Source of the DNA: a bacterium
Lineage (GTDB): Bacteria > UBP6 > UBA1177 > JAKLFG01
Assembly (NCBI GenBank): GCA_022709425.1
Contig: JAKLIW010000003.1
Coordinates: 102,293-166,292 of the forward strand
Reading direction: 5' to 3'
Length of the DNA stretch: 64,000 bases
The notes below the pieces were generated by a model. The model was not told the origin of the DNA. It did no database searches and was given only the letters and a program-made list of their open reading frames with translations. Numbering within the stretch: position 1 is the first letter of the stretch; every line of letters begins with the position of its first letter. The position numbers and the translations under genes are program-made. Positions 12,483 to 33,830 of this stretch are shown here, in pieces.

Positions 12483-12503
12483 ACAACAGGTCGGGAGAAC
12501 AGG

Positions 12504-13583: not shown

Positions 13584-13647
13584 ACGAAACCGAAACCAGA
13601 ACCAAGCATATTGATCCTAAACAAATCCATGAGAGAATTATTGTTTA

Positions 13648-14574: not shown

Positions 14575-14609
14575 GGATGCTTTACAAGAATGCGGGAAAT
14601 GATGTCTGC

Positions 14610-14641
14610 GTAATAGGAGAAAAATGGATTTTGTTATAATG
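14610..14641 (+). promoter_or_regulatory. Candidate sigma-70 extended -10 promoter (tgtTATAAT) upstream of the methyltransferase operon
   Basis: TGnTATAAT lies at about 14632-14640, followed by a GAGGG RBS 7 nt before the ATG at 14686. Confidence 0.3.
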
Positions 14642-14685
14642 ATAAACTACAGTTACTGAGCCTTTAGCATCATGAGGGAAAAGCC

Positions 14686-16752
14686 ATGGTAAAAGAGCAG
14701 CATCAACCAGAGACCAGAGAAAAAAGCACGAATAGGAAAAAGAGTCTATCCGCTCTTAATACTATTCCAGCAGGGTACACCCTGGATTATATTTCCAGTA
14801 AACCAATCAAAGAGACTGCCAAGGAACAAGTTCGTCAGCGGGTGGTGCGTGCCCTGATTCACGAATATGGTTTTTCTCCAGAAGATATGGAGTTGGGTTT
14901 TTCCATTGGCGGTCGCAAGAAAGTTGATGTGGCCATTTTTCACCATGGCAAAGAACACACACTCGAAAATCTCGGCCGTGCCGTGATTTGCCGCCAGGAG
15001 CCAAATATTGGCAAGAACGCTGCCCGGATCCGGGACTTTGAACAGGCCGCAAATGACCTCGAAGAGATCGAGACTATTATGAGAGAGGTCGATGCGGTTC
15101 AGTATGGCCTGTGGACCAACGGTCTGGAATTCTTTTTTATCGAGAAAGAGCGGCAGCGCTTCGAAACCAAGTGCAACCCCATCGGTGACTGGCCGATGGC
15201 CGAAGAGTCAGTCGGTACCAAGGAGGTTATCTCCGATGCCCATACTCGCGTCGCCGACACAGAAATGCTCAAGATCACCTTCCGGCGTTGCCACAACTTC
15301 ATCCACGGCAACGAAGGCATGCCCAAGGACGCCGCATTCTGGCAGTTCCTTTATCTGATCTTCTGCAAAATGCATGACGAAAACCTGCGCGCCAAGCAGC
15401 GTCAGGCTTGGCAGTGCCGCTTCTGGGCTGGTCCCAAGGAGCAGTTCGAGGCCCAAGGCCGCAAGGCAATCCGCGTACGCATCGAGGATCTCTTCACCGA
15501 GGTCAAGAAGCAGTACAAGAACATTTTCCGAGGCAATGAGGAGATAGCCCTCTCCGACCGGGCACTGGCCTTTATCGTCTCTGAACTAGCCAAATACGAT
15601 TTCACCCGCACAGATGTCGATGCCAAGGGCGTGGCCTATCAGGAATTGGTGGGCGTCAACTTGCGCGGCGACCGTGGTCAGTATTTCACCCCCCGGGGCG
15701 TCGTGAAACTGGTAATTGAAATGCTCGATCCCCAGGAAAACGAAACTTTGCTGGACCCTGCCTGTGGCACCGGCGGTTTCCTGGTAGCCACATTGGGCCA
15801 TATGCTGAAGAAATTCCGCATAGAACAAAACACTCAGGTTGGGAAGGAGAGCACGACCGATTTTTTGAACGTTCACGAGCGGTTGAAAGAGTTTGCCGCT
15901 ACCAATGTGTTCGGGGCCGACTTTGACCCGTTTCTGATCCGAGCCGCGCAGATGAACATGGTTCTGGCAGGTGATGGTCGTGGGCATCTTTACAACATCA
16001 ATTCTCTAGAATTTCCACTAGGGCACCTAGCTGATTTGCCCTCTGCCAAGAAGGACCTCCCCTTTGGCTCTGTTGATCTCATTGCTACTAATCCACCGTT
16101 CGGTTCAGATATTCCAATTACCGATAGACACATCTTGGAGCAATATGAATTAGCTCACGAATGGAAGTCTGATGGAGAGGGTGGTTTTCGCAACACAGGC
16201 AGATTGCAGAGTAGCATGGCCCCTGAGATACTTTTTATTGAACGCTGCATTAAATGGATCAAGCCCGGTAAGGGTCGGATGGGCATTGTCCTGCCTGACG
16301 GGGTTCTCGGCAACCCAGCAGCGGAATACATCCGTTGGTGGATTATGCGCGAAACCCAAGTACTTGCCTCCGTTGATTTGCCGGTAGAATCCTTTATCGC
16401 CGAGGCCAATGTTAACATCCTCACCAGCCTGTTGTTCCTGCGCCGCAAGAGTGAAGAAGAAAAACGTACCGAGGCCATGGGCGCCATTGAAGAATATCCA
16501 GTCTTCATGGCCGTGGCCGACAAGGTTGGCTTCGACCGTCGCGGCAACAAACTCTACAAGCGCACTCCTGACGGCGAAGAAATCGTCGAAGCCAAGCAGC
16601 ATGTTGAGCGTATCCGCATCGGCGGACGCTTTGTGGAACGTACCCTGACTCGCAGTGAAAAGATTGAGGATAACGATCTGCCGGTTATCGCTGAAAAATA
16701 CCGAGAATTTATTAGGGAGCAAAAAGATGGGCGAAGAAAACGACATCATTGA
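14686..16752 (+). CDS. N6-adenine DNA methyltransferase (gamma-class, HsdM-like) fused to an N-terminal HSDR_N-type PD-(D/E)xK-like domain whose catalytic motif is degenerate
   Basis: Motif I LDPACGTGGFLV. Motif IV NPPFG. The N-terminus shows the HSDR_N pattern (RALIHEYGF...VDVAIF...AVICRQEP...GLWTNGLEFFF), but the canonical IE.K is replaced by ICRQ. Confidence 0.85.
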   Translation: MVKEQHQPETREKSTNRKKSLSALNTIPAGYTLDYISSKPIKETAKEQVRQRVVRALIHEYGFSPEDMELGFSIGGRKKVDVAIFHHGKEHTLENLGRAVICRQEPNIGKNAARIRDFEQAANDLEEIETIMREVDAVQYGLWTNGLEFFFIEKERQRFETKCNPIGDWPMAEESVGTKEVISDAHTRVADTEMLKITFRRCHNFIHGNEGMPKDAAFWQFLYLIFCKMHDENLRAKQRQAWQCRFWAGPKEQFEAQGRKAIRVRIEDLFTEVKKQYKNIFRGNEEIALSDRALAFIVSELAKYDFTRTDVDAKGVAYQELVGVNLRGDRGQYFTPRGVVKLVIEMLDPQENETLLDPACGTGGFLVATLGHMLKKFRIEQNTQVGKESTTDFLNVHERLKEFAATNVFGADFDPFLIRAAQMNMVLAGDGRGHLYNINSLEFPLGHLADLPSAKKDLPFGSVDLIATNPPFGSDIPITDRHILEQYELAHEWKSDGEGGFRNTGRLQSSMAPEILFIERCIKWIKPGKGRMGIVLPDGVLGNPAAEYIRWWIMRETQVLASVDLPVESFIAEANVNILTSLLFLRRKSEEEKRTEAMGAIEEYPVFMAVADKVGFDRRGNKLYKRTPDGEEIVEAKQHVERIRIGGRFVERTLTRSEKIEDNDLPVIAEKYREFIREQKDGRRKRHH

Positions 16753-18772
16753 AACCCTAGAGGAAGAACTCCTCGAAAAAGAGGATGTTGACGATGAAAG
16801 CGGTCCGGAGAAGTTCTTTATTGACATTCTGACCGGCAACAAAGAAAGCTCCTCGGCCAAGAAACTGCTAGTGCAGAAGGTCCTGCGCCAGCTCATCGAG
16901 AGTTACGGATTTGACCGAAATGATATTGAGGTTGATTACAAACATCGCATCAGGGGCGGCAAGCCGGCGAAAATTGATATTGTTATTTTTCGCCCCGATG
17001 CCGAACACACCAACGACAACCTGCAGCGAATCATCATCTGTAAGAATCAGAAGAAGCACGATAAGCTCCGCTCCGTTACCGAGGCCGACGCCGACCTGCG
17101 TCAGCTCAAGGAGCTGCTCGAGCTGATCCCCGGCACGACCCTGGGTATGTGGACCAATGGACACGAGGAATTCCTGTTCCAGGTCGAGCGCACCCGTTTC
17201 GAGGTCCGAACCAAACCTCTAGGCGTTTGGCCCATACCCGGAGAGGCAACAGTCGACCTTGAGCGCACAGGAGGAGTCATTCAGGTAAGCGCTGATGCGG
17301 AAGGCCTCGAAGATGCTCTTTCCCGTTGCTTCCTCTACCTTTCCAGCAATCAAAACATTGGCTTGGGTGACAGGGCTGGTTTTCAGCAGCTTGCTTTAAT
17401 TCTATTTTCGAAGATCTATGACGAAACGAAGCCTGCTGGTGAGAGACTGTTTTGGATCAAAGGGGAAGAGCCTTTTACACCAGAAGGTCAAGCGGCCATT
17501 CAACAGAGGATCGTTTCTTGTATAGAGGGGGCAATTGCATGGAAACCCAACCTCCTTGAACAAGGCTGGACTCTGAACCTAAGACCAAGCCAAACGGCTC
17601 GCGTGGTCATGGAGCTGGCTCGTTACTCTTTGAGCGAAACACTTCCTCGTTACCGAACCGGAGCTTTCAGATCAGTTGCTCGGTATGTAATGGACGGCAA
17701 AGATGGCCGCTATCCTACGCCACTCAATGTGGCCGAAATGGCGGTGGAGATGCTCGACCCGCAACCCGGTGAACGCATCATGGACTGCTCCAGCGGTACC
17801 GGCACTTTCTTGGCCATGGCCGCTGCGCACATCTTCAAGAAGAAACTGGCCGCCAGTGGCGCCACGCCTGAAGAGGCCACCAACAAACAGATCCGTCAGG
17901 CGCAAAACGAAACCGCCACCTGGGCGGCAAGCAATGCCCTGGGCTGTGACATTGATCCCTTTCTGGCCGTCGCCAGCCGCATGAATCTGCTGTTTACCAC
18001 CGGCAATCCCGGCCGAGTGTTCCGCATAGATGCCCGGACCTTCCCTGATGGAGATCAAGAGGGCATTGAAGTAGCTCGGCAATGCATGCCCCTCGGTAGC
18101 ATGGATGTGGTTTTGCTTAATCCATGGTTCTCCACCAAAAACACGGTGACCGATTCATTCATCCTAGAACGCTATGGCCTGGGCAATAACTGGGAGCGCG
18201 ATGAGGAAGGTGGATTCCGCAATACGGGCAATCTGAACACCGGTGGCGTACCACCCGAGGTTCTTTTTATCGAACGTGCCCTGCAGTGGGTGAAACCGGG
18301 CACCGGTCGTATCGCTATTTTATTGCCGGACGGGATCTTGGGTAACCCCGGAGATGAATACGTACGCTGGTGGATTCTGCGTCACTGCGAGGTGTTGGCC
18401 AGCGTCGACTTGCCCGTTGAACCCTTCAAGGTCACCGTCAAGGAGTATGGCCTGACGCCAGCTTTGCCTAGCCTACTGGTGCTGCGCCGTCGCAGCCAGG
18501 AAGAGCTGATCAACACAGAGTACCCGGAATACAAGGTCTTCATGGCCGTGGTGGATCGGGCCGGTGTGGATGCCCGAGGTAATCTGCTTTTCCAGCGAGC
18601 CCCCGATGGTGAAGAACTGGTTTTCGATGAGGAAGTGATCGAGCGGGTTCGTGAAGGTGGCGAAGTGAAAATCCGCCGCACCACGCGCCGCAACCGTCGC
18701 ATTCATGACGAACTGCCGCTGGTGGCAGAGAAATACAAGGAATTCCGCGCAACCGGCGAGGTGATGTTATGA
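16727..18772 (+). CDS. Paralogous HSDR_N-fused N6A-methyltransferase-like protein with an atypical motif IV (NPWF) and a degenerate nuclease motif (ICKN)
   Basis: Motif I MDCSSGTGTFLA. Motif IV reads NPWFSTKN instead of NPPF/Y. HSDR_N-like N-terminus (LRQLIESYGF...IDIVIF...RIIICKNQ...GMWTNGHEEFLF). Start set at the Met with an AGGGAG RBS; it overlaps the upstream gene. Confidence 0.8.
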   Translation: MGEENDIIETLEEELLEKEDVDDESGPEKFFIDILTGNKESSSAKKLLVQKVLRQLIESYGFDRNDIEVDYKHRIRGGKPAKIDIVIFRPDAEHTNDNLQRIIICKNQKKHDKLRSVTEADADLRQLKELLELIPGTTLGMWTNGHEEFLFQVERTRFEVRTKPLGVWPIPGEATVDLERTGGVIQVSADAEGLEDALSRCFLYLSSNQNIGLGDRAGFQQLALILFSKIYDETKPAGERLFWIKGEEPFTPEGQAAIQQRIVSCIEGAIAWKPNLLEQGWTLNLRPSQTARVVMELARYSLSETLPRYRTGAFRSVARYVMDGKDGRYPTPLNVAEMAVEMLDPQPGERIMDCSSGTGTFLAMAAAHIFKKKLAASGATPEEATNKQIRQAQNETATWAASNALGCDIDPFLAVASRMNLLFTTGNPGRVFRIDARTFPDGDQEGIEVARQCMPLGSMDVVLLNPWFSTKNTVTDSFILERYGLGNNWERDEEGGFRNTGNLNTGGVPPEVLFIERALQWVKPGTGRIAILLPDGILGNPGDEYVRWWILRHCEVLASVDLPVEPFKVTVKEYGLTPALPSLLVLRRRSQEELINTEYPEYKVFMAVVDRAGVDARGNLLFQRAPDGEELVFDEEVIERVREGGEVKIRRTTRRNRRIHDELPLVAEKYKEFRATGEVML

Positions 18773-20181
18773 GTAGAAAATTTCAATGCAAAGCGATACC
18801 AAGCACTTGGCTTGAGCACAATGGTCGCCGCCTTGATTGTGGTCCCTATATGTCCGGGGCTATAGAAGCCCGCGAACTTCTAAAAAGGCACGAAACAGAG
18901 GCTCTCCAATCTCTAACGGCGGGGTATAACGGAGGAATTTATAACGGGCCACAATTCGTTAGGAACTACGTTGAAGATCCAGCTTTCGGAGTCCCTTTTT
19001 TAACGACTTCAACAATGCAGCAAAGCGATACGAGTGGCCTTCCTATGATTAGTCGAAAAGACGCACATTCATCCAAGTTGCGCTACTTAAAAGTTAATGA
19101 GGGAATGACGCTGATCACATGCTCAGGAAGCATAGGGAAAATGGCCTATGCAAGAAAGGACATGGAAAAAGCGTGGTCAAACCAAGACATCATGAAGGTT
19201 GTTGCAGATCGAGCCAAAATCCTCCCTGGATATCTCTATGCCTACCTTTCTAGTCGTTTTGGTGTTCCGATGGTAGTCTCAGGCACTTACGGGGCAATCA
19301 TCCAGCATATTGAGCCGCATCACATTTCAGACCTTCCTGTTCCACGTCTCAGCGAAATTGAGAATCAAGCACATGACCTGATTCAAGGAGCAGCGAACCT
19401 GAGGGTTGAGGCTGCCGAAATAATTGCGCAGATCAGCGCAGAGGTCGAGAGAAGATTCGATTTGTGGGATGAGTCATTATCTGACAAGGCGAGAATAGCA
19501 AGAAACGGTTTTTTAACAACGTCTACTGCTCTTGCAGAGTCGGGCCGCTTTGAAGCCACTTACCATGACGCGATCGCTGCAGCAATCGCTGACAGGGTTC
19601 AATCTCAACCAAATACCCGAATAGACATTGTATGTAAAGTTAAGAAGCCAGGTATGTTCAAAAGGATCATGGTTGATGGCCCCGAACACGGCTATGGCTT
19701 TGTCCCTGGTTCTGAGTTATTTACATTGGCACCAAAGCCCGTGTACTGGGTCTCGCCGAGAACTCCGAATATCGAAGATTGTGTGATGTCTCCGTATTGG
19801 ATTCTCATCCAAGCGTTTGGGCAGCTTGGCGGATTGATTGGCCGATGTATTATGACTACTCCAATGCTGGAGGGTTGTGCCGCCACTGATCTTCAGATTC
19901 AACTCAGATTCGACAATAAGTTAGACGCTGGTTATGTGTTCGCGATTCTTTACAGTCGACCTGGTTATAAACTAATTACTAGAACTCCCATCGGTGGATC
20001 AATTCCGCACATTCATCCGAAAGACATTGAGTCACTTTGTATCCCTTGGCCAGAAGCAGATGTAAGACATGCTATTGGTGAAAGGATTATTGAGGCTTGG
20101 GATAAGCGTGAAGAAGCTGTTCGATTAGAGGATGAAGCCCGCTCCCTAGTCGAACGCACCATCGAGGAGGGAGGTCACTAA
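18769..20181 (+). CDS. HsdS-like specificity subunit with two target-recognition domains
   Basis: 470 aa. Two repeats of the TRD-end conserved block (GAIIQHIEPHHISDLPVPRLSEIENQAHDLIQ and GGSIPHIHPKDIESLCIPWPEADVRHAIGERIIEAW), the latter coiled-coil-like. Lower GC than the flanks. ATGA overlap with the upstream MTase. Confidence 0.7.
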   Translation: MSRKFQCKAIPSTWLEHNGRRLDCGPYMSGAIEARELLKRHETEALQSLTAGYNGGIYNGPQFVRNYVEDPAFGVPFLTTSTMQQSDTSGLPMISRKDAHSSKLRYLKVNEGMTLITCSGSIGKMAYARKDMEKAWSNQDIMKVVADRAKILPGYLYAYLSSRFGVPMVVSGTYGAIIQHIEPHHISDLPVPRLSEIENQAHDLIQGAANLRVEAAEIIAQISAEVERRFDLWDESLSDKARIARNGFLTTSTALAESGRFEATYHDAIAAAIADRVQSQPNTRIDIVCKVKKPGMFKRIMVDGPEHGYGFVPGSELFTLAPKPVYWVSPRTPNIEDCVMSPYWILIQAFGQLGGLIGRCIMTTPMLEGCAATDLQIQLRFDNKLDAGYVFAILYSRPGYKLITRTPIGGSIPHIHPKDIESLCIPWPEADVRHAIGERIIEAWDKREEAVRLEDEARSLVERTIEEGGH

Positions 20182-24335: not shown

Positions 24336-26008
24336 GCATTAGGGGCAAAGATAAGGAGTTCCGAACTCCCAAAATTACCTATATCGACTTCAAGCACATC
24401 GAGATGGATCGAGTGCTGACCCTGCTCTTCCCCCGACTGAAATATGACGGGTATACGAGCAGGTTCAGCAGAGCGAGAAAACTGGAAGTCGAGGACTTCC
24501 TGACCGAGTTCATGGAGCATGATGAGTGGTTTGACGGATTTGATAAACATAAGGAAATAATAAAGAAATGGCTTGAGACAGATCTGCTTGATCTTGTGAA
24601 TAGGGGAAGGGCAAATCAAGCAGTGGCGGCTCCTCGACCGCTTCATGGGAATACCTATAAGTTTCGCAATGTAAAACACACGAGGGATTATGGGGCGGCA
24701 GAACACCTATATTGGATGCTTTATTATGCCCGTAGAGGTAGATGTGAGGCGGCTAGAAGCTCCTTAAAAAAATTCTTCTTTACAGGATACGATTTTCACA
24801 CTGACAAATATGATGCTGGTCTCAATGTAGATGTCGAAACACAAGCGATTTTGAGACTCGACCTCCAAGTAACTCAGGATACAAAAAGCAACGATGAGCC
24901 GGAGAGATATCAGCCTCTATGTGTTGGCCAAGCCGACATAATGGCCGACGACATTCTACGACTTCTGGCCTATGAGTCTTATGTCCCACGTTCGGTGTTA
25001 GTGGATTACCTCAAAACTCTAATGGCATTCCATCTGGCACTTTACCATCTCAAGTTGTTACAGATGCTACCAAGGCTGGTGAAACAGCGATCCGAAAACG
25101 ATCTTTGCACCACCAAGGAATGCCCGATCAATCCGAGCCTCGACAATGTGTTGGAATGCTGTCCTTACCGCTTAGCGCTGGTCGTAGACATGGGCAACAT
25201 CAACAATCCTCATATTGCCGAGCTGGCCCGCAAGTCAACGGAGCGGTTCTATCGCCAGATCCCGGCATTCGTGCAATCTAATTTTATCGTTAAAAAGCTT
25301 GATGAGATGGCGGAGAATATGCGTCTTCAAGGGAAACTGGCATTGCCTTCGAGTGGTCACTTTTCAGCTGGTGATTTAATTGGTCTGCTTAAGTCTGAAC
25401 ATGATTCAAATCGGGAGGCCTATTTTACGGCTCGCCTTTCAAAATTGATCGAAGAGGCAGGAACAAGCGGGGAGGAAATTGACCCGGAGATCCGAGATGT
25501 TACTTCGATGAACCTGAATGCGTTTGAGAAATTCATCGAAATTCTGATGGCGTATCGAGGCAAGTATCACCGCCAGTACATCACCGAGTGTCTAGATTCC
25601 CTTCTGCTGAAGAACAAAGAGAACGGTCTGCTGGCCCAACCCCGGACCAAGGGAAGTCCTCGGCGGTTTGTGTTGGGGAGCAAGTTACTTGAAGTGCTGC
25701 TTCAGGTGGCCGTGCTCACCCAAGACGGCGGTCGCTTCGTGACCCGCGAGGTTCGCATTGAGGAGTTGCTGGCTTTTTTGAGAAATCGTTACGGCCTTTA
25801 CATTGACCGACTGCCAGAAGGAGCCCATGCCAACAGCAGCATCCTCGACAGGCGCGCTTTGCGCCTCAACCTTGAAGCCTTTAAGCGTCGACTTCGTGAA
25901 ATCGGATTTTACGAGGATCTGTCGGATGCCTATGTGACCCAGAAGGTATCGCCCCGCTATGCGATTGAGAGAAATGACGGAACAGATAAAAACGGGAGGC
26001 ACGCATGA
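24332..26008 (+). CDS. Hypothetical protein (558 aa), translationally coupled within the defence-like operon
   Basis: 4-nt overlaps at both ends. No motif was recognised. The 5' half has lower GC. Confidence 0.6.
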   Translation: MSIRGKDKEFRTPKITYIDFKHIEMDRVLTLLFPRLKYDGYTSRFSRARKLEVEDFLTEFMEHDEWFDGFDKHKEIIKKWLETDLLDLVNRGRANQAVAAPRPLHGNTYKFRNVKHTRDYGAAEHLYWMLYYARRGRCEAARSSLKKFFFTGYDFHTDKYDAGLNVDVETQAILRLDLQVTQDTKSNDEPERYQPLCVGQADIMADDILRLLAYESYVPRSVLVDYLKTLMAFHLALYHLKLLQMLPRLVKQRSENDLCTTKECPINPSLDNVLECCPYRLALVVDMGNINNPHIAELARKSTERFYRQIPAFVQSNFIVKKLDEMAENMRLQGKLALPSSGHFSAGDLIGLLKSEHDSNREAYFTARLSKLIEEAGTSGEEIDPEIRDVTSMNLNAFEKFIEILMAYRGKYHRQYITECLDSLLLKNKENGLLAQPRTKGSPRRFVLGSKLLEVLLQVAVLTQDGGRFVTREVRIEELLAFLRNRYGLYIDRLPEGAHANSSILDRRALRLNLEAFKRRLREIGFYEDLSDAYVTQKVSPRYAIERNDGTDKNGRHA

Positions 26009-29000
26009 GCAATGCGTTCATCAAGCTTTCCTATGATAAATTGAACGCAGCGGTCGCTTGTCTGCTGTGCCCGCGTATCGAAACAATCCTGGGTGACCGT
26101 GGCCCAGGCCACTGCATGCGGATCACCGATCTCGATGACGATGTAATGGAGTCTGTCTGCAAGGAACTGCGCCGAACCCGACCCGACGGAAACATCTTTA
26201 TCCTTGGTAGCCATGATCAGGAAAGTCTGCCTTTCCGAGTCACTTCCACCAAACTGGTGGAATTGCGCAACCCGGACTCGAACGGCGAGTTGCGTCAGCC
26301 TTTGATGGTCTTTATACCCACCTCGCTTCGCACCAGCGCCGAGGATTCTTTCGGCGTGGCGACCTTCGAGGAGCTGGCCTTCACCGGTATCTATGAGAAC
26401 CTTATCGACTCACTACTAGATCGGATCCCGACAACACTGGTCGGCCCTGTTCGCGACCTTTTTGGTTTCCTCACAGAGGAGGAATGGCTGTTTGCCGATG
26501 ATGTTTCTCGTGTGCGGTACCTGCTCACTGCGCTCGAAAACGGGATTGATGGAGAAACCCTCGGGGCCAGCCTGTATGAATTGACTTTGATCCCGGACTT
26601 CAAGCTTTTTGCCGATCCTGGCATGCTCAGGGGCAAGATTCGCCGTAACCTCGACAGCGTCCGTAGTTTGATGATTTCTCACAAGTCGGTTCGTGGACGC
26701 ATTGCCGGTTTGGGCCTCAGCGACAAGACCTTGGAATCGCGCCTATTCGCCTACTTTGAAAAACACGATGTCCATGAGCCGGAATCCTGGACCTTGCCCA
26801 TCGCGACTGATAAGAGCTGGTGGAGCATTTCTTTCGACAAATGGACATTCCGGGGAGAGCTTTACCTAGACAAGGTTCTGCTGACGGTGCTGGGAACCGA
26901 CTTGCCGGTTGTTCAGAAGGAAGAGACCGATGACCAGCTTTCCGGCCTGATTGGACAACAGGTTCTGATCCCGAATGATCGCCGCAAAATGAATGTGGAG
27001 TTCGAGGTCAATCCTCACCCGGGCAAGGTCAGCGGTCTTGACCATTTTACGGTTCAGATCGTTTCGCAGAATGATGGCCCGGTAGGAAAATCAAAAAAGG
27101 TTAAAGCGTGGACGCCGAATCGCCTTCAATGTACGACTAATCTTGCAAAGCTCAATAAGGTTGAATTCGAGGAAGGATGGCATTTCATTCGTATCTTGCC
27201 TTGGTCGGCAGACGGCGATCAAATTCCGCTGGAAGCGGGTTCTTCCTCCGAAGGTGCTAAACACTCCTATGAAAGCGAACCATTCTATGTCCTGCCCGGT
27301 GGCAACATTGAGGAGGAACCGCCGCAAAGAGCCATACCCATTGAACAGAGCCTAGAGCATGCACGTTTCCGGTTGCAACTGACGGCATTGGGCGATGAGC
27401 GCGATCCGGAAGACATCGCTATCAGTAGTGTCGTTTGGGCCGAAGGCAACAGTTCGAAGAAGGTCTCCCGACATGAAACCTTGCTTGCGAAATTTGGTCG
27501 CGAGGGCGCTTTTCAGATACCGCTTTCGCGCATGCTCAAAACCATTGAGCAACGCATCTTGGCTGAGCCCAAGCATCCATCAGGCTGGCGAATGCAGATC
27601 AATCTGGATACCCCTGAGTTGCCATCTGAGGTTGGTCTCACGCTGCCTTCTTCTGCCGCAATGGCCTCTTTTTTGGCCGCTCGCGAAGAGTTTTTTGCAG
27701 CGGTACGCAAAGACACTGCCGAGTTGATTATGCAAGGGCTTTCGTTCCGAGACTCGGAAAAGGAATGCCTTGCCTATGCGGAAGGGTACCTTGATCTAGT
27801 AAGAAATCTTATCCGCCAAGCCGAGACGACTTCTGGTGCCGACCGCCAACAACACCTACAATCGCTCAGGAATGTGTTGGCCGTTGATTCCATTCATGTC
27901 GTCTTAACTGATTTCCGCGGAAGACACCGGGAGGCTGTTTTGGTCTCTCCAACCCATCCGCTCCGTGCTTTGTGGCTAAGCAGCTGGGTCACCCTGGGTA
28001 AGGATTGGATCGAGAAGATCAAATCAGGCGGAAAGGATTACATTCCTCATGTTCGTTCTGCGCTCCTAGAACGCCTTGCGCCATCTGCCTATCCGGTCGG
28101 TATTCCAGTCGAGGATGGCCGAATCTTCACTCCGGTCGACAACCTGAATGCGTTCTGGGCACTTTACGCCCCAACAACCGAGGAAAATTCCAGAGGCCTG
28201 ATGGCGGAAATCTGTTCAGCGCTTGGCTTGGCCGAGCCCTCTGCGGCGGGAACAGATGTTTGCGGAAAGGTCATTGCGGACAAGATCGAGCGCTATCTCT
28301 CCCAGCATCCGTATGTGCGAGAGTTATCACTAAACATCTTCAACCCGGGCGCCGCATCAGTAATTGCGGATGCCCTGCTCTCGCTCCAGCAAAAGCGTGA
28401 GCATGCCGATTTGCGCTATGACATCCGGCTCTTCACATCGGACCCCGATTCGCCAGTTTTAGGTGAGGCACTTGAATCGATGGTCCGTCCCGGGGCAACA
28501 GTAAACGAGGCCGCTGACGCGTTTGCGATTTCGACGGGCAGCCATCTGTTCTCCAAGCTGAACTTGGCTAAGCACGCGCTGAATGAGTTTCGTTCAAATT
28601 CCAAGGAATTCCCGGCACACATCAGCGTTCTTCTGGATGTGTTTCCCGCCGAGGAGATATCCATTACAGAGAAGCCGATGGGCGTGACCCCATTGCATGG
28701 GCTGATACAGGACTTTGACACTGACTTCGTTGATGACGATACGGGTACCTTCTGGAACAAGCGGCCGATTGTCGGACGATCCCTCGCTGCGGATAGCCAC
28801 GCGACATGCTTTGATTTGTTGTCGTCCCTGAGCCGAAACCTCAGTTTCGCTACCTCAGCGATTGCTGCTTCTGGTGCCAGTTTTAAATCTGTGCCCGTCA
28901 TAACCCTTGGCCTCGATGCCGTTCAACGAGAACTAATCTACGAAGTGCACCAGATTAGCGATTGGGTGTTCACCATCGACCGAAATATGGGGATTGAATT

Positions 29001-31467
29001 TTTCGATCATGGTGGCCGGAAGAATAGACCAGACTATCTGATTGACTATGTGCCTGGAGCCAGTTCTCAGGCGACACACAACCTAATCATCTCTTCGCGA
29101 TCGAACGATGAGCTGGAGGCAATGCTGAAGCCGGTGCTGCTCGAGCACGGATTGTCCGCCGACGGTGAGCAGTCGGTTCAGATATTGGCAAATCTGCGGT
29201 CGCTTTCCGGCCAGCTTGCCCTGAAGCTGATTTCTGCTCGTACGCAACAGGCGGAAGCACTTGGTTTGGCTTTGGCACGGCTCTATCTCGAATATCAGGG
29301 CGCATTGAGCAACCAAGTAATTGTGCCGTTGGACGCGCATACGGACCTTTACCGCTCAAGCGATGAGTCAAACGACGTCAACGACGCTATAAGCCTTCAA
29401 CGCACTGACTTGGGACTGTTTGACTTAGATTTGAACACTAGGACGATCACTTGCAACCTGATCGAAGTGAAATGCTATTCGCAGGTGGGCAATTTCGCAG
29501 CCTTTAACCAACTGAAGGAACGAATTTCCGCCCAAATCAATCAGAGCGAGCGAATTCTCCAGCGCCACTTCGACCCGGCCCTAAAAAAACCGGACCGGCC
29601 GGATAGGCTGCTCAAGAGCCGAGAGTTTGCGCAGATCCTTCGTTTCTATCTAGAACGCTCTTTGCGCTACGGGATCTTTGATGCGACCGCTGCGCAAGAG
29701 TCGCGAGGATTACTTGAGTCCATCGAGCAAGGCTACTCGCTTCAGTTCAAACGCTGCGCTCTGATCTTTGATTTTGAAAAGGCGGGCACCGATGCTCCGG
29801 ACAACGAAGTGGGCATTGAATTCCACCGCATCGGCAAAGATCTCATTCATGCCTTGCTGGAGAGTTGCCGCAAGTCTGTTTCTGTCGAGACGGAGAAAGA
29901 GCCGACTACACATCTTCTAAGCGAGCAGTTTATCCACAATGTGCCGAAGCTCGAGACAGCGGTCTTTATTGCACCCAAGAGAACCCGGTCAACATCTTGG
30001 ACTTTGGATGAACTCTGGGACGATGAGCCGGAGGTGCCAATCACTCCGCCAGCATCCTCGGCCGCACGGGAAACACCCAAGGTAGCCAAGGAGAAAACAG
30101 AAAAACAGTCGAAACCTTTTGAGCAAGCACCTCGACCTCCCGCAATCGCTTCTGAAGAAGATGGCGAACAACTCGCCTCCGTGGATGCCTTATCAGAAGC
30201 CCCTGCTAAATCCGAACCCGAAATGCAAGAGACTCAGACGTCTAAACCTGTCTCACAAGCAGAGGTCAGCTATGACATTATGCTCGGCGTCAATGGCGGC
30301 TCGCCTCAATACGGATTACTCGGAGAGATTTCCGGCAGAAAAGTCGCGCTGGATCTCAATCACACCCACACGATCAGTTTATTCGGGGTTCAAGGTGGCG
30401 GTAAGAGCTACACCCTTGGAACGGTGATTGAGATGGCATCCATGCCGCTTCAGCACATCAATGTGCTGCCAAGCCCCCTCGCTACGGTCATTTTCCATTA
30501 CAGCCCGACGCAGGATTATGCGCCGGAGTTTACCTCGATGATCCATGCCAACTCAGTGGAAGAGGAAATTCGCATTCTGCGAGAGCATTACAAGGCTATG
30601 CCGAAGGCTCTGAAGGATGTGTTGGTCCTTACCCCGGCGAATAAGGTGAGTGATCGCCGGGCCGAGTACCCAGATATCGAGATTAAGCCGATAGCTTTTT
30701 CTGCCTCCGAGCTTAAAGCGGCTCACTGGAAATTCCTGATGGGTGCGATTGGTAGTCAAAGCATGTATATGCGGCAAATCAATCTCATCATGAGAGGCCT
30801 GAGGGATAACCTAACATTGGATGCTCTGCGAGCAGGTATTGACAACTCAGGTCTGTCCGATCATCTCAAAGAGCTAGCCCAGACGCGCCTTCTTTTCGCC
30901 AGCGAATACATCGACGATAACCAGCGACTTCAAGATCTGATTCGTCCAGGCCGTTTGATCATCGTTGATCTGCGCGATGAATACATTGAGAAAGACGAGG
31001 CCCTGGGTCTGTTTGTGGTGATGTTGCAGATTTTCTCGGAAGCAACCTACCAGGGGAGCGCCTTTAACAAGCTGGTGGTTTTCGATGAAGCCCACAAATA
31101 CATCGAAAACGATGACTTGGTTTCTGGCCTTGTTGAGGTTGTCCGTGAGATGCGACATAAAGGGACCAGTATCATGGTGGCATCTCAGGATCCGCCATCG
31201 GTCCCTGTCTCCCTTATTGAGCTGTCATCGCAAATCATCATGCACAAGTTTAACTCACCTGCCTGGTTAAAACATATTCAGAAGGCAAATGCTGCCCTGG
31301 GAAGACTGTCTTCTGACAAGATGAGCCGCTTGAGCACAGGCGAAGCTTATGTTTGGTCATCAAAATCTTCAGATGAAGCATTCACAAAGGAAGCGATAAG
31401 AATAAAGCTGCGTCCCAGAGTCACTCAGCATGGAGGCGCCACAAAGACTGCCGTAGCCGACAAATGA
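26005..31467 (+). CDS. Giant protein (1820 aa) with an internal PD-(D/E)xK-like motif and a C-terminal HerA/FtsK-like (DUF87-type) P-loop ATPase
   Basis: The C-terminal region has ALDLNHTHTISLFGVQGGGKSYTLG (Walker A in HerA-like context) and LVVFDEAHKYI (Walker B DEAH). Around aa ~1135, LFDLDLNTRTITCNLIEVKCY gives a D...E-V-K core. The N-terminal ~1100 aa is unassigned. Confidence 0.75.
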   Translation: MSNAFIKLSYDKLNAAVACLLCPRIETILGDRGPGHCMRITDLDDDVMESVCKELRRTRPDGNIFILGSHDQESLPFRVTSTKLVELRNPDSNGELRQPLMVFIPTSLRTSAEDSFGVATFEELAFTGIYENLIDSLLDRIPTTLVGPVRDLFGFLTEEEWLFADDVSRVRYLLTALENGIDGETLGASLYELTLIPDFKLFADPGMLRGKIRRNLDSVRSLMISHKSVRGRIAGLGLSDKTLESRLFAYFEKHDVHEPESWTLPIATDKSWWSISFDKWTFRGELYLDKVLLTVLGTDLPVVQKEETDDQLSGLIGQQVLIPNDRRKMNVEFEVNPHPGKVSGLDHFTVQIVSQNDGPVGKSKKVKAWTPNRLQCTTNLAKLNKVEFEEGWHFIRILPWSADGDQIPLEAGSSSEGAKHSYESEPFYVLPGGNIEEEPPQRAIPIEQSLEHARFRLQLTALGDERDPEDIAISSVVWAEGNSSKKVSRHETLLAKFGREGAFQIPLSRMLKTIEQRILAEPKHPSGWRMQINLDTPELPSEVGLTLPSSAAMASFLAAREEFFAAVRKDTAELIMQGLSFRDSEKECLAYAEGYLDLVRNLIRQAETTSGADRQQHLQSLRNVLAVDSIHVVLTDFRGRHREAVLVSPTHPLRALWLSSWVTLGKDWIEKIKSGGKDYIPHVRSALLERLAPSAYPVGIPVEDGRIFTPVDNLNAFWALYAPTTEENSRGLMAEICSALGLAEPSAAGTDVCGKVIADKIERYLSQHPYVRELSLNIFNPGAASVIADALLSLQQKREHADLRYDIRLFTSDPDSPVLGEALESMVRPGATVNEAADAFAISTGSHLFSKLNLAKHALNEFRSNSKEFPAHISVLLDVFPAEEISITEKPMGVTPLHGLIQDFDTDFVDDDTGTFWNKRPIVGRSLAADSHATCFDLLSSLSRNLSFATSAIAASGASFKSVPVITLGLDAVQRELIYEVHQISDWVFTIDRNMGIEFFDHGGRKNRPDYLIDYVPGASSQATHNLIISSRSNDELEAMLKPVLLEHGLSADGEQSVQILANLRSLSGQLALKLISARTQQAEALGLALARLYLEYQGALSNQVIVPLDAHTDLYRSSDESNDVNDAISLQRTDLGLFDLDLNTRTITCNLIEVKCYSQVGNFAAFNQLKERISAQINQSERILQRHFDPALKKPDRPDRLLKSREFAQILRFYLERSLRYGIFDATAAQESRGLLESIEQGYSLQFKRCALIFDFEKAGTDAPDNEVGIEFHRIGKDLIHALLESCRKSVSVETEKEPTTHLLSEQFIHNVPKLETAVFIAPKRTRSTSWTLDELWDDEPEVPITPPASSAARETPKVAKEKTEKQSKPFEQAPRPPAIASEEDGEQLASVDALSEAPAKSEPEMQETQTSKPVSQAEVSYDIMLGVNGGSPQYGLLGEISGRKVALDLNHTHTISLFGVQGGGKSYTLGTVIEMASMPLQHINVLPSPLATVIFHYSPTQDYAPEFTSMIHANSVEEEIRILREHYKAMPKALKDVLVLTPANKVSDRRAEYPDIEIKPIAFSASELKAAHWKFLMGAIGSQSMYMRQINLIMRGLRDNLTLDALRAGIDNSGLSDHLKELAQTRLLFASEYIDDNQRLQDLIRPGRLIIVDLRDEYIEKDEALGLFVVMLQIFSEATYQGSAFNKLVVFDEAHKYIENDDLVSGLVEVVREMRHKGTSIMVASQDPPSVPVSLIELSSQIIMHKFNSPAWLKHIQKANAALGRLSSDKMSRLSTGEAYVWSSKSSDEAFTKEAIRIKLRPRVTQHGGATKTAVADK

Positions 31468-31496: not shown

Positions 31497-31787
31497 ATGG
31501 ACAAACTGACGACGACGATACAGCGAGATCCGCTCCGAGAAATAGTCGCCGGTCGGAAGCCTGTCGAGTATCGCGACATCAAGCCTTATTGGGACAAACG
31601 CCTTGCCGGCCGGAAGTGTCCCTTCCTGTTGCGGCTCATTAACGGCATGTCGGCGACGGCGCCGGAGGCAACGGTGCGGATAGATCGTATTCGCAAGAAC
31701 ATCCGAACCAACAAGTACGAACTCCATATCGGCAAGGTGGTACAGGTCCTCAACTGGGACCGACGCCGCGAAGAGCCGACGGCCTGA
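31497..31787 (+). CDS. ASCH-domain (PUA-like fold) protein
   Basis: 96 aa. LREIVAGRKPVEYRDIKPYW matches the ASCH GxKxxExR signature. It lies 30 nt downstream of the giant gene. Confidence 0.6.
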   Translation: MDKLTTTIQRDPLREIVAGRKPVEYRDIKPYWDKRLAGRKCPFLLRLINGMSATAPEATVRIDRIRKNIRTNKYELHIGKVVQVLNWDRRREEPTA

Positions 31788-31797
31788 CGGCAGGTCT

Positions 31798-31998
31798 ATG
31801 AAAAAGAAAGTCGTGGAGAATCATCCGGTTCCGGCGCCGCGTTATAACCTTACTGAGTGCGCCGAACTCCTTGACCGCCCCGAGAATCCGTTCTTCATGT
31901 TCGGCATCGACGCCTGCCGTTTCCAGACATGGGAGAACTACCGCGACGGGCTCCTGACCCGCGAAAATGCTATTGAGCGCCTTTTCCAAGATCAATGA
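31798..31998 (+). CDS. Hypothetical small protein (66 aa)
   Basis: ORF 10 nt after the ASCH gene stop. No motif was recognised. Confidence 0.35.
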   Translation: MKKKVVENHPVPAPRYNLTECAELLDRPENPFFMFGIDACRFQTWENYRDGLLTRENAIERLFQDQ

Positions 31999-32044
31999 CA
32001 AATCTCAACCAGACCAATGACAATTTACCCCTTATTCATAACAG

Positions 32045-32110
32045 TCACCCTTGGATAATTCGGTGAAACTGGCCACCTGTTTCGGGCAAACTGGCCACCC
32101 CTTGGAAGAG
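32045..32110 (+). repeat. Solo IS21-family terminal-repeat-like end (tggataattcggtgaaactggccacc...gggcaaactggccacccc)
   Basis: Read on the plus strand, it closely matches the reverse complement of the multi-repeat terminus of the IS21 element at 41636-41705 (tggaaaattcggtccaaactgaccggcc...). No transposase gene is adjacent. Confidence 0.55.
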
Positions 32111-33829: not shown

Positions 33830-33830
33830 T

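What the first reader, a model, noticed from the sequence alone, without database searches (positions are those of the whole stretch)
14686..31467. Candidate novel six-gene defence system: MTase x2, HsdS, NERD-kinase-NTPase, unknown protein, and a nuclease/HerA giant
Six plus-strand genes run from 14686 to 31467 and are translationally coupled, with 1-4 nt overlaps between them. They combine a type-I/IIB-like modification module with effectors that are not HsdR. The modification module is two HSDR_N-fused N6A methyltransferases plus a two-TRD S subunit. The effectors are a PglW-like NERD + pseudokinase + kinase + P-loop protein, a 558-aa unknown protein, and an 1820-aa protein with a PD-(D/E)xK-like motif and a C-terminal HerA/FtsK-type ATPase. 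Pairing a methyltransferase with a tandem-kinase protein is what the Pgl/BREX type 2 system does. However, no PglX-type MTase, no PglZ phosphatase and no BrxC/PglY homologue is recognisable. The S subunit and the HerA-like giant are not part of known BREX or Pgl systems. I do not recognise this combination as any described system.
Basis: partly seen in the sequence, partly recalled or inferred. Interest (0 to 1): 0.92.

Follow-up and report, generated by a model that had tools for sequence, protein, structure and literature searches.

The report
Known MADS anti-phage defence operon
The six genes are a real, intact anti-phage operon, but it is an ordinary copy of the already described MADS (methylation-associated defence system), in the two-methyltransferase layout that NCBI already annotates in E. 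coli.

Summary
The claim of novelty does not hold.

All six proteins pass the curated NCBIfam equivalog cut-offs for MADS: MAD2 (twice), MAD5, MAD6, MAD7 and MAD8. PADLOC gives mad2, mad5, mad6, mad7 and mad8. E. coli EC11 carries mads1-mads2-mads2-mads5-mads6-mads7-mads8 in the same order and sizes, 77-86% identical except the S subunit. That arrangement is complete in 26 of the 34 surveyed loci with enough upstream sequence.

MADS was shown to defend Pseudomonas aeruginosa SMC4386 against phages (Maestri et al.). This copy differs from that 8-gene prototype. It has a second MAD2 paralogue (NPWF instead of NPPF) where MAD3/MAD4 sit, and it lacks the small HTH gene MAD1.

New detail from this work:
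- The C-terminal half of MAD6 is SspF/DndF-like, so MAD6-7-8 is a kinase-fused homologue of the Dnd/Ssp FGH restriction trio.
- MAD8 has a nearly invariant D...D...ExK motif in a predicted PD-(D/E)xK-like fold.

Likely mechanism, inferred and not shown: MAD2a/MAD2b/MAD5 write m6A at a bipartite site, and MAD6-7-8 translocates along and nicks unmethylated DNA.

Interest is low.

The parts
14686..16752 (+). MAD2a: HSDR_N_2-fused N6-adenine DNA methyltransferase, predicted to be catalytically competent (motif I D357PACGTGGF, motif IV N469PPF)
   Evidence: NCBIfam MAD2 equivalog 1017.8 bits against a cut-off of 720. PADLOC mad2 3.7e-85 and MTase_II 5.5e-259. Pfam N6_Mtase and HSDR_N_2. Best solved relative is the type IIB enzyme RM.BsaXI, 8w0p, 8e-22. 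Both motifs are invariant in 30 sequences. It is 60% identical to MAD2 of a canonical 8-gene locus.
16727..18772 (+). MAD2b: second MAD2 paralogue (~37% identical to MAD2a) with diverged motifs (D353CSSGTG, N465PWF). It occupies the slot that holds MAD3+MAD4 in the prototype.
   Evidence: NCBIfam MAD2 767.9 bits against a cut-off of 720. PADLOC mad2 6.2e-50. NPWF is invariant in 31 sequences. Median dN 0.128 against median pS 0.59 argues for a selected gene, not a decaying copy. The start at 16727 is supported by orthologue alignments from residue 1.
18769..20181 (+). MAD5: two-TRD specificity (S) subunit
   Evidence: NCBIfam MAD5 494.9 bits against a cut-off of 400, full length. PADLOC mad5 1e-31 and many type I/II S models. 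It is only 36-49% identical to orthologues (67% in one short fragment of the frameshifted locus L038) while its neighbours are 73-95% identical, as expected for swapped target-recognition domains.
20181..24335 (+). MAD6: NERD (aa 12-122), pseudokinase (aa ~234-460), active-looking Ser/Thr kinase (aa ~507-751) and an SspF/DndF-like P-loop ATPase (aa ~825-1345)
   Evidence: NCBIfam MAD6 828.3 bits against a cut-off of 460. PADLOC mad6 2e-120 and PglW 8e-71, N-terminal half only. Pfam NERD and two Pkinase matches. The C-terminal 614 aa match SspF at 4.8e-28 and 6.1e-25, nearly the full profile, and DndF at 2.3e-7.
22653..24215 (+). SspF/DndF-like ATPase region inside MAD6 (Walker A G848NAGDGKT855)
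   Evidence: PADLOC SspF PDLC02796 aligns residues 55-575 of the C-terminal piece to profile positions 33-524 of 525. The Walker A motif is invariant in 36 sequences.
24332..26008 (+).
   Evidence: NCBIfam MAD7 661 bits against a cut-off of 410. PADLOC mad7 3.1e-123 and SspG 3.4e-9. The precomputed Pfam family PF26611 is labelled MAD7. NCBI names close homologues MAD7. The preprint's supplementary notes report HHpred 99.5% to DndG, PDB 7EXX.
26005..31467 (+). MAD8: DptH/DndH/SspH-like giant with an internal PD-(D/E)xK-like domain, a low-complexity linker (aa ~1330-1420) and a C-terminal HerA/FtsK-type ATPase
   Evidence: NCBIfam MAD8 233 bits against a cut-off of 175. PADLOC mad8 5e-40, HerA, and DndH/SspH matches colinear at aa 755-1096. 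PDB hits TdpA and HerA. JGI names fragments DptH. It is 47% identical over its full length to MAD8 of a canonical locus.
29242..29874 (+). Predicted PD-(D/E)xK-like nuclease fold in MAD8 (aa ~1080-1290; D1110, D1135, D1140, E1154, K1156)
30322..31455 (+). HerA/FtsK-type ATPase domain of MAD8 (Walker A G1461VQGGGKS, Walker B D1694-E1695)
   Evidence: PADLOC mad8 1.9e-41 and several HerA models. PDB TdpA 8wet 2.3e-4 and HerA 4d2i. Motifs are invariant.
14632..14640 (+). Possible extended -10 promoter element (TGtTATAAT), 46 nt upstream of the MAD2a start. Seen by eye only.
   Evidence: Read directly from the sequence. The consensus scan did not list it because no -35 hexamer fits. Unverified.

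Best explanation
**Identity.** This is a MADS (methylation-associated defence system) operon of the two-MAD2 architecture: MAD2a-MAD2b-MAD5-MAD6-MAD7-MAD8. It sits in a lower-GC defence island of an uncultured bacterium and lacks the small upstream HTH gene MAD1.

**Shown elsewhere.** In P. aeruginosa SMC4386, the 8-gene MADS restricts several phages and plasmids. It methylates a bipartite site (TCAGNNNNTCC, m6A on both strands), and methylation was lost in the mad2 deletion mutant. Phages escape by acquiring that methylation.

**Inferred here.**
- MAD5 (two TRDs) with MAD2a and MAD2b forms a type I/IIB-like M-S complex that writes m6A on host DNA.
- MAD2a is the canonical catalytic subunit (NPPF). 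MAD2b (NPWF) is either a diverged second catalytic subunit or a structural partner.
- MAD6, MAD7 and MAD8 are homologues of the Dnd/Ssp restriction trio F, G and H. That trio forms a complex that translocates on DNA and nicks it unless the modification stops its ATPase.
- In MADS the stop signal would be m6A at the MAD5-specified site instead of phosphorothioate.
- Candidate nucleases are the PD-(D/E)xK-like domain of MAD8 and the NERD domain of MAD6 (E46/D48...D61-V-K63, conserved).
- The motors are the SspF-like P-loop of MAD6 and the HerA/FtsK-like ATPase of MAD8.
- The active kinase domain of MAD6 probably switches the complex by phosphorylation.

I put identity as MADS at about 0.95 and the FGH-like mechanism at about 0.5.
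For: **Identity.**
- All six proteins exceed the curated NCBIfam equivalog cut-offs for MAD2, MAD2, MAD5, MAD6, MAD7 and MAD8.
- PADLOC assigns mad2, mad5, mad6, mad7 and mad8.
- E. coli EC11 has mads1-mads2-mads2-mads5-mads6-mads7-mads8 annotated by PGAP with the same order and lengths. It is 86/78/38/77/78/86% identical to the window proteins.
- The arrangement with both MAD2 genes complete is seen in 26 of the 34 surveyed loci (33 genome loci plus E. coli EC11) that have enough upstream sequence. Five more are consistent but cut or frameshifted. They span Pseudomonadota, Acidobacteriota, Omnitrophota, Verrucomicrobiota, Hydrogenedentota and Desulfobacterota.
- The proteins are colinear over full length with a canonical 8-gene MADS on a Piscinibacter plasmid, at 39-60% identity (38% for the MAD2b paralogue).
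- DNA homology to other MADS loci spans exactly 14758-31461.
- Purifying selection acts on all five non-S genes.

**Mechanism.**
- The MAD6 C-terminus matches SspF at 4.8e-28.
- MAD7 matches SspG at 3.4e-9, and the preprint's notes report HHpred 99.5% to DndG.
- MAD8 matches DndH/SspH and HerA.
- DndFGH is described as a 2:2:1 complex with translocation-coupled nicking, whose ATPase is repressed by the modification (PMC11662687).
- MAD8 has a PD-(D/E)xK-like motif and fold.
- The genetics and methylome of MADS come from bioRxiv 10.1101/2023.03.30.534895.
Against: **Missing parts.**
- MAD1 is absent, and the first ~24 codons of MAD2a differ from all orthologues. Regulation or expression of this copy may therefore differ.
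- MAD3 (ATPase) and MAD4 (DUF4276/Toprim-like) are absent. Both are required for defence in the P. aeruginosa prototype.
- As far as I could find, the experimental evidence applies to a sister architecture, not to this one.

**Weak points in the mechanism.**
- The homology of MAD7 and MAD8 to the G and H proteins is weak at the sequence level (E 1e-6 to 1e-9).
- MAD7 found nothing in the PDB by phmmer.
- A 2026 review still lists the MADS restriction mechanism as unknown (PMC12904381).
- No biochemical data exist for any MAD protein in the literature I could search.
Confidence: 0.93

Rival explanations
1. This is an inactive or deregulated remnant of a MADS cassette. The 5' end (MAD1 and the first ~24 codons of MAD2a) was lost by recombination with the upstream HNH gene region, so the operon may no longer be properly expressed or controlled.
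For: No MAD1 is found anywhere in the window, while most orthologous loci with complete upstream sequence have it directly upstream. DNA homology begins only at 14758, 72 nt inside MAD2a. No consensus promoter was found by the scan.
Against: All six ORFs are intact with conserved catalytic motifs. An identical 17.7-kb stretch occurs in independent assemblies. Deleting mad1 had little effect in P. aeruginosa. L014 and L021 also lack a detectable MAD1 while keeping all six other genes. A TGnTATAAT element and a Shine-Dalgarno sequence precede MAD2a.
Confidence: 0.1
2. These are two independent systems that merely sit side by side: an orphan type I/IIB-like methyltransferase-specificity module, and a separate kinase-DptG-DptH restriction module.
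For: The MAD6/7/8-like trio occurs without MAD2 or MAD5 on B. thuringiensis pKK1. The slot between MAD2 and MAD5 is variable: MAD3+MAD4, MAD2b, a Fic gene, or nothing.
Against: The six genes move as one unit with overlapping reading frames across many phyla. In P. aeruginosa, deleting the methyltransferase or any of mad6-8 abolishes defence, and mad5 cannot be deleted alone. That shows functional coupling.
Confidence: 0.03
3. This is a genuinely undescribed six-gene defence system, or a divergent BREX type 2/Pgl variant.
For: The N-terminal half of MAD6 resembles PglW (PADLOC 8.1e-71). Pfam-A in the copy used gives no family for the 558-aa and 1820-aa proteins.
Against: MADS equivalog models are passed by all six proteins. 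The same layout is already annotated in RefSeq. PglW scores 224.6 bits against a cut-off of 990, and the BREX PglX model scores 22 against 900. No PglZ or BrxC domain was found in the six proteins or in the flanking ORFs that were scanned.
Confidence: 0.02

Closest known systems
MADS, two-MAD2 architecture, as annotated by NCBI PGAP in E. coli EC11 (NZ_CP027255: mads1-mads2-mads2-mads5-mads6-mads7-mads8)
   Same: The six shared genes have the same order, orientation and lengths, and the junctions overlap in the same way. Identity is 86/78/38/77/78/86% for MAD2a/2b/5/6/7/8. Both sit in horizontally acquired islands.
   Different: The window copy lacks the 70-aa HTH gene MAD1 and has a different N-terminus for MAD2a (first ~24 residues). 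The S subunit is divergent, so the recognition sequence presumably differs.
MADS prototype, P. aeruginosa SMC4386 (mad1-8; Maestri et al., bioRxiv 10.1101/2023.03.30.534895, Cell Host Microbe 2024). The same 8-gene layout is on Piscinibacter gummiphilus plasmid NZ_CP136338.
   Same: MAD2, MAD5, MAD6, MAD7 and MAD8 are present, colinear and full length. Identity to the Piscinibacter proteins is 39-60%, with the MAD2b paralogue at 38%. The logic is the same: an m6A mark set by an M+S module, plus a kinase/DptG-like/HerA-like trio that the authors' detection model treats as mandatory.
   Different: The prototype has one MAD2, followed by MAD3 (AAA/ABC-type ATPase) and MAD4 (DUF4276, Toprim-like). 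Both are required for defence there. The window has a second, diverged MAD2 paralogue in that position and no MAD1, MAD3 or MAD4.
DndFGH / SspFGH (DptFGH) phosphorothioate-dependent restriction modules
   Same: The three proteins match in the same gene order. The MAD6 C-terminus matches SspF/DndF, MAD7 matches SspG/DndG, and MAD8 matches SspH/DndH, with a similar ~1700-1800-aa size and a C-terminal HerA/FtsK-like ATPase.
   Different: No dnd or ssp modification genes accompany them; the self mark is m6A. The F homologue is fused to NERD and two kinase domains. Sequence similarity is distant, and MADS proteins have their own equivalog families.
BREX type 2 / Pgl (PglW, PglX, PglY, PglZ)
   Same: Both have a NERD plus tandem kinase protein paired with an N6-adenine methyltransferase, and both use methylation for self/non-self discrimination.
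   Different: PglW similarity stops at about aa 760 and is far below the equivalog cut-off. There is no PglX-type methyltransferase, PglZ phosphatase or BrxC/PglY ATPase. MADS has a separate S subunit and DptG/H-like proteins.
Type I and type IIB restriction-modification (for example EcoKI M2S, BsaXI RM+S)
   Same: Both use gamma-class N6-adenine methyltransferases with a separate two-TRD S subunit. The best solved relative of MAD2a is RM.BsaXI. MAD2a and MAD2b carry an N-terminal HSDR_N_2 (PD-(D/E)xK-fold) domain, as in type IIB RM subunits.
   Different: There is no HsdR motor-nuclease. By eye, the HSDR_N_2 domains lack the acidic/lysine ExK pair (VICRQ in MAD2a, IICKN in MAD2b). I did not test this further. 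Restriction is delegated to MAD6-8.

Membership tests
MADS (methylation-associated defence system) | MAD6 protein kinase (mandatory in the authors' MacSyFinder model) | tested here: met
   NCBIfam NF047741 828.3 bits against a cut-off of 460. PADLOC mad6 2e-120. 50% identical over full length to MAD6 of a canonical 8-gene locus.
MADS (methylation-associated defence system) | MAD7, DndG/DptG-like protein (mandatory) | tested here: met
   NF047733 661 bits against a cut-off of 410. PADLOC mad7 3.1e-123, full profile. Homologues are named MAD7 by NCBI.
MADS (methylation-associated defence system) | MAD8, HerA-like ATP-binding giant (mandatory) | tested here: met
   NF047742 233 bits against a cut-off of 175. 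PADLOC mad8 5e-40. 47% identical over residues 1-1818 to canonical MAD8.
MADS (methylation-associated defence system) | MAD2 N6-adenine methyltransferase and MAD5 specificity subunit | tested here: met
   MAD2 model 1017.8 and 767.9 bits against a cut-off of 720. MAD5 model 494.9 bits against a cut-off of 400.
MADS (methylation-associated defence system) | MAD1 HTH regulator upstream (accessory; dispensable in P. aeruginosa) | tested here: not met
   No tblastn match in the window to 23 MAD1 sequences (E. coli plus 22 orthologues) at E of 1 or less beyond noise. Upstream ORFs give no MAD1 model hit.
MADS (methylation-associated defence system) | MAD3 ATPase and MAD4 DUF4276 (accessory in the detection model; required for defence in the prototype) | tested here: not met
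   No PADLOC or NCBIfam hit among the flanking ORFs scanned. No tblastn hit to Piscinibacter MAD3/MAD4 in the window or in any of the 41 close genome loci, E. coli EC11 or the two contigs that share the window's sequence. E. coli loci that PGAP annotates as MADS lack them too.
MADS (methylation-associated defence system) | Single co-directional operon with conserved gene order | tested here: met
MADS (methylation-associated defence system) | Site-specific m6A of host DNA and restriction of unmethylated phage or plasmid DNA | not testable with these tools
   Needs a methylome and plaque or transformation assays. Shown only for the P. aeruginosa prototype.
BREX type 2 / Pgl | PglW equivalog | tested here: not met
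   NF033442 224.6 bits against a cut-off of 990. The match covers only aa 14-751.
BREX type 2 / Pgl | PglX methyltransferase, PglZ phosphatase, PglY/BrxC ATPase | tested here: not met
   BREX PglX model 22.2 bits against a cut-off of 900. No PglZ or BrxC family in the six proteins or in the flanking ORFs that were scanned.
Dnd/Ssp phosphorothioate restriction (DndFGH/SspFGH) | F, G and H proteins | tested here: inconclusive
   Homology was detected: SspF 4.8e-28, SspG 3.4e-9, and DndH/SspH 9e-7 to 2e-6. The matches are distant, and no Dnd/Ssp/Dpt NCBIfam model was listed for these proteins. They are homologues, not members.
Dnd/Ssp phosphorothioate restriction (DndFGH/SspFGH) | Partner dndABCDE or sspABCD modification genes | tested here: not met
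   None among the six genes or the flanking ORFs scanned with PADLOC. The conserved cassette ends at the MAD8 stop codon.
Type I restriction-modification | HsdR (SF2 helicase plus nuclease) subunit | tested here: not met
   No ResIII, helicase or HsdR family in the operon or in the flanking ORFs scanned.

The most novel reading that the evidence does not exclude
The two-MAD2 architecture seen here may be a mechanistically distinct MADS subtype that has not itself been studied experimentally. It has no MAD3/MAD4 Toprim-ATPase module and carries a conserved NPWF paralogue, MAD2b, in their place.

In this reading:
- Restriction rests entirely on a kinase-fused DndFGH-like complex (MAD6-7-8) that reads m6A instead of phosphorothioate.
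- The MAD2a/MAD2b heterodimer, one canonical and one diverged active site, replaces the M2 homodimer of type I-like enzymes.

If so, MADS and the Dnd/Ssp systems would share one restriction engine that has been re-coupled to different epigenetic marks.
Probability: 0.35. Interest if true: 0.4.

Novelty: already known. Interest (0 to 1): 0.12.

Why it matters
As a discovery it matters little. The operon would be labelled MADS gene by gene by current NCBI annotation models and by PADLOC, so it adds one more metagenomic instance of a known system.

Three points from this check may help people who work on MADS:
- The restriction mechanism of MADS is still listed as unknown. Here the whole MAD6-MAD7-MAD8 trio maps onto the Dnd/Ssp F-G-H restriction proteins, because the C-terminal half of MAD6 is SspF-like. 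This gives a concrete, testable model.
- The position between MAD2 and MAD5 is a variable slot. It holds MAD3+MAD4, a second MAD2, a Fic gene, or nothing.
- The two-MAD2 cassette is 73-91% identical in protein across distant phyla although synonymous sites are highly diverged, near saturation for some genes. That degree of constraint is unusual for a defence system.

Tried and rejected
**Searches that found nothing useful.**
- phmmer of MAD7 against PDB sequences found nothing at E of 1 or less. The DndG link therefore rests on PADLOC SspG and on the HHpred result reported in the preprint.
- Pfam-A in the copy used has no family for MAD7 or MAD8, although a precomputed PF26611, labelled MAD7, exists.
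- Promoter and terminator consensus scans around both ends of the operon were no better than shuffled sequence.
- No tRNA gene in the window marks an integration site.

**Literature.**
- The published Cell Host Microbe paper is not in the held library. I relied on the preprint and its supplements.
- The MANTIS preprint and the Ojima et al. preprint turned out to be irrelevant to MADS mechanism.
- A search for mechanistic MADS papers found none beyond the original work.

**Interpretations considered and rejected.**
- BREX/Pgl membership and type I RM membership (see the membership tests).
- The idea that MAD2b is a decaying duplicate, rejected on the dN against pS comparison.

**Not attempted.**
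- I did not resolve whether the HSDR_N_2 domains of MAD2a and MAD2b are catalytically dead. That rests on inspection by eye only.
- I did not identify the host phylum. NCBI lists the source only as 'MAG TPA: bacterium'.
Full report
**1. The observation**

The six plus-strand ORFs exist as described:
- 14686-16752 (688 aa)
- 16727-18772 (681 aa)
- 18769-20181 (470 aa)
- 20181-24335 (1384 aa)
- 24332-26008 (558 aa)
- 26005-31467 (1820 aa)

The mechanical ORF list starts the second gene at a GTG at 16655. The ATG at 16727 is preceded by GGGAG and corresponds to residue 1 of the orthologues. The first junction therefore overlaps by 26 nt.

The region lies in a stretch of 45-55% GC (about 11-39 kb), between flanks of 57-63% GC.

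**2. What it is**

Pfam confirms the domain calls for four of the six proteins and finds nothing for the 558-aa and 1820-aa proteins. The defence-specific and NCBI libraries settle the matter.

PADLOC-DB gives:

| Protein | PADLOC model | E-value |
|---|---|---|
| First methyltransferase | mad2 | 3.7e-85 |
| Second methyltransferase | mad2 | 6.2e-50 |
| S subunit | mad5 | 1e-31 |
| 1384-aa protein | mad6 | 2e-120 |
| 558-aa protein | mad7 | 3.1e-123 |
| 1820-aa protein | mad8 | 5e-40 |

NCBIfam release 20 has equivalog models for the methylation-associated defense system, and all six proteins pass their curated cut-offs:

| Protein | Model | Bits | Cut-off |
|---|---|---|---|
| MAD2a | MAD2 | 1017.8 | 720 |
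| MAD2b | MAD2 | 767.9 | 720 |
| S subunit | MAD5 | 494.9 | 400 |
| 1384-aa protein | MAD6 | 828.3 | 460 |
| 558-aa protein | MAD7 | 661 | 410 |
| 1820-aa protein | MAD8 | 233 | 175 |

MADS was discovered by transposon mutagenesis in P. aeruginosa SMC4386 as an 8-gene operon, mad1-8. Its properties there (bioRxiv 10.1101/2023.03.30.534895; published as Cell Host Microbe 2024;32:1412, cited in PMC12904381):
- It protects against at least four phages.
- It methylates TCAGNNNNTCC on both strands, and that methylation is lost in a mad2 deletion mutant.
- Phages escape it by becoming methylated.

The authors' detection model makes MAD6, MAD7 and MAD8 mandatory and the rest accessory. They found 422 systems in 100 species, most often in Escherichia. 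[quoted passage not shown]

**3. Is this exact layout known?**

Yes. A distant blastn search with the MAD7 gene finds 10 of 5,426 complete E. coli genomes. In strain EC11, PGAP annotates mads1-mads2-mads2-mads5-mads6-mads7-mads8 inside an integrase island next to tRNA-Leu. Gene lengths are almost identical to the window's.

MAD7 has more than 1,600 homologues at E of 1e-5 or less. The top 120 are 76-83% identical (one is the window's own protein at 100%), and several are already named MAD7 by NCBI. The window's own MAD7 is in NCBI as a hypothetical protein of an unclassified 'MAG TPA: bacterium'.

I fetched 41 genome loci and mapped the six proteins onto them and onto the E. coli locus, 42 loci in all:
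- 26 loci have the complete MAD2a-MAD2b-MAD5-MAD6-MAD7-MAD8 arrangement, nearly always preceded by a ~70-aa MAD1.
- 5 more loci are consistent with it but are cut or frameshifted.
- 8 loci are too short to tell.
- 3 loci differ. L034 has one MAD2 and nothing else in the slot. L031 and L033 carry a Fic-domain gene where MAD2b would be.

Identities to the window are 75-90% (MAD2a), 73-94% (MAD2b), 77-89% (MAD6), 73-82% (MAD7) and 76-91% (MAD8). MAD5 is only 36-49% identical, the usual pattern for shuffled target-recognition domains.

The hosts span Pseudomonadota, Acidobacteriota, Omnitrophota, Verrucomicrobiota, Hydrogenedentota and Desulfobacterota. Partial loci come from Actinomycetes, Zixiibacteriota and Lentisphaera.

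DNA similarity between the window and these loci runs from 14758 to about 31461. That is exactly the cassette, minus its first 72 nt.

**4. How it differs from the prototype**

A Piscinibacter plasmid carries the canonical layout, with MAD1, MAD2, MAD3, MAD4, MAD5 and MAD6 all passing their NCBIfam models. Identity of the window proteins to it:

| Window protein | Identity to Piscinibacter protein |
|---|---|
| MAD2a | 60% |
| MAD2b | 38% |
| MAD5 | 39% |
| MAD6 | 50% (full length) |
| MAD7 | 49% |
| MAD8 | 47% (full length) |

The window and its relatives are therefore a sister clade. In this clade a second MAD2 paralogue occupies the place of MAD3 (ATPase) and MAD4 (DUF4276, a Toprim-like predicted nuclease; PMC12065111). 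Neither MAD3 nor MAD4 occurs in the window or in any of the 41 close loci.

The window additionally lacks MAD1. An HNH-domain gene ends 112 nt upstream of MAD2a, and the first ~24 residues of MAD2a are unrelated to those of orthologues. MAD1 had little effect when deleted in P. aeruginosa.

**5. Anatomy relevant to mechanism**

*Modification module.*
- MAD2a keeps canonical motifs, D357PACGTGGF and N469PPF. Both are invariant in 30 sequences.
- MAD2b has D353CSSGTG and an invariant N465PWF.
- MAD2b is under purifying selection (median dN 0.128 against pS 0.59), so it is functional. Whether it is catalytic cannot be told from sequence.
- The best solved relative of MAD2a is the type IIB enzyme RM.BsaXI.

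*MAD6*.
- The NERD domain has a conserved E46/D48...D61-V-K63 motif.
- The first kinase-like domain lacks the catalytic Asp (HRN, DFD).
- The second kinase domain has K535, H-Q-D629, N634 and D646-F-N.
- The last ~600 residues carry the Walker A motif G848NAGDGKT. They match PADLOC SspF profiles almost end to end (4.8e-28 and 6.1e-25) and also match DndF.

*MAD7.* It matches SspG (3.4e-9). The preprint's notes report HHpred 99.5% to DndG.

*MAD8.*
- It matches DndH/SspH colinearly in its middle part.
- JGI names its fragments DptH.
- It ends in a HerA/FtsK-type ATPase.
- Residues D1110, D1135, D1140, E1154 and K1156 are nearly invariant in homologues down to 40% identity.
- An AlphaFold2 model of aa 880-1300 has pLDDT mostly 78-94 for about aa 1030-1290, with two lower blocks (about 49-66) near the motif, but is poor for aa 880-1030.

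**6. Most likely mechanism**

*Shown for the prototype.* The self mark is m6A at a bipartite site. MAD2-4 and MAD6-8 are all needed for defence. MAD5 cannot be deleted unless MAD2 or MAD3 is also deleted.

*Inferred here.* MAD6-C, MAD7 and MAD8 are homologues, in order, of the F, G and H proteins of the Dnd and Ssp systems. DndFGH is described as a 2:2:1 complex with translocation-coupled nicking, whose ATP hydrolysis is repressed by the phosphorothioate mark (PMC11662687).

The simplest model for MADS is therefore as follows:
- An M-S complex (here MAD2a-MAD2b-MAD5) marks host DNA.
- An FGH-like motor-nuclease loads on DNA and damages it unless it meets the mark.
- The fused kinase provides regulation.

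A 2026 review still lists the MADS restriction mechanism as unknown. This model is therefore a hypothesis, which I put at about 0.5.

**7. Comparison and verdict**

- It is a member of MADS. All mandatory components and the M and S components meet the curated thresholds. The accessory components MAD1, MAD3 and MAD4 are absent, as MAD3 and MAD4 are in the PGAP-annotated E. coli loci.
- It is not BREX/Pgl. The PglW, PglX, PglZ and BrxC criteria are not met.
- It is not a type I RM system. There is no HsdR.
- It is not a Dnd/Ssp system. There are no PT-modification genes. It probably works like the restriction half of those systems.

Novelty: already known. Interest: low (0.12). The small residual value lies in three points: the FGH mapping, the variable slot between MAD2 and MAD5, and the unusually strong cross-phylum conservation (pS 0.43-0.72 with dN 0.05-0.15).

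Noticed in passing
window 31497-32051, breakpoint at 32051; L043 and L044: Two independent assemblies (an ENA contig and a Logan contig) are 100% identical to the window up to position 32051. Beyond that point the ENA contig diverges: it carries a tyrosine integrase and other genes where the window has a 547-aa and a 1689-aa minus-strand gene. The Logan contig simply ends there. Two small conserved ORFs (96 aa at 31497-31787, 66 aa at 31798-31998) follow MAD8 in all three but have no Pfam family. This looks like a strain-level rearrangement or insertion right after the cassette.
   Followed up: partly
L031:2947-4068 and L033:2995-4116; L034: In two otherwise typical MADS loci, a 373-aa Fic/DOC-domain gene sits exactly where MAD2b sits in the window. 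In L034 nothing sits there. Together with MAD3+MAD4 in the prototype, this makes the position between MAD2 and MAD5 a variable accessory slot.
   Followed up: partly
L046 (Bacillus thuringiensis plasmid pKK1, NZ_AP014865) 5214-20745: A MAD6/MAD7/MAD8-like trio occurs without any MAD2 or MAD5. The MAD6 model is just passed (463.8 bits against 460), and MAD7 is below its cut-off (308 against 410). The trio is preceded by a 255-aa protein and a 1308-aa protein with only a faint BrxC/BrxD match. The kinase-G-H core may therefore pair with other partner modules.
   Followed up: partly
window 14686-31467 compared with L001-L042: The cassette is unusually conserved for a defence system. Proteins are 73-91% identical across distant phyla, while synonymous sites are highly diverged, near saturation for some genes (pS 0.43-0.72), and GC3 ranges from 0.33 to 0.82. 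This indicates long-standing strong purifying selection, not very recent transfer.
   Followed up: partly
window 11901-14574 (+): Three co-directional genes lie directly upstream of the MADS operon: DUF1643 (11901-12482), an Mrr_cat restriction-endonuclease-like protein (12504-13583) and an HNH endonuclease-domain protein (13648-14574, faint type IV REase hit). They may be another restriction-type defence. The HNH gene is also upstream in the ENA contig.
   Followed up: partly
window 5392-8113: A WYL/WCX/HTH regulator (5392-6342, minus strand) is divergently paired with a 552-aa AAA ATPase (6455-8113, plus strand; weak match to the anti-phage ATPase IteA, 81 bits against a cut-off of 510). This is a typical look for a regulated defence gene.
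   Followed up: no
window 39267-41541 (-): An IS21-family element: IstB-like ATPase (39267-40028; Pfam IstB_IS21 1.8e-67) and a transposase with rve and Mu-transposase C-terminal domains (40006-41541). It sits at the GC-content boundary of the island.
   Followed up: no
window 32186-38900 (-): A 1689-aa protein with thrombospondin type 3 repeats sits next to a 547-aa Cys-rich protein with a hydrophobic N-terminus. Both are on the minus strand in low-GC DNA, and neither has a defence-family hit. They are probably surface or secreted proteins unrelated to MADS.
   Followed up: no
window MAD2a aa ~80-105 and MAD2b aa ~83-108 (about 14923-15000 and 16973-17050): By eye, the HSDR_N_2 (PD-(D/E)xK-fold) domains of both methyltransferases keep the first Asp (VDVAIF in MAD2a, IDIVIF in MAD2b). 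Both have VICRQ or IICKN where an ExK would be expected. They may be non-catalytic DNA-binding or interaction domains.
   Followed up: no
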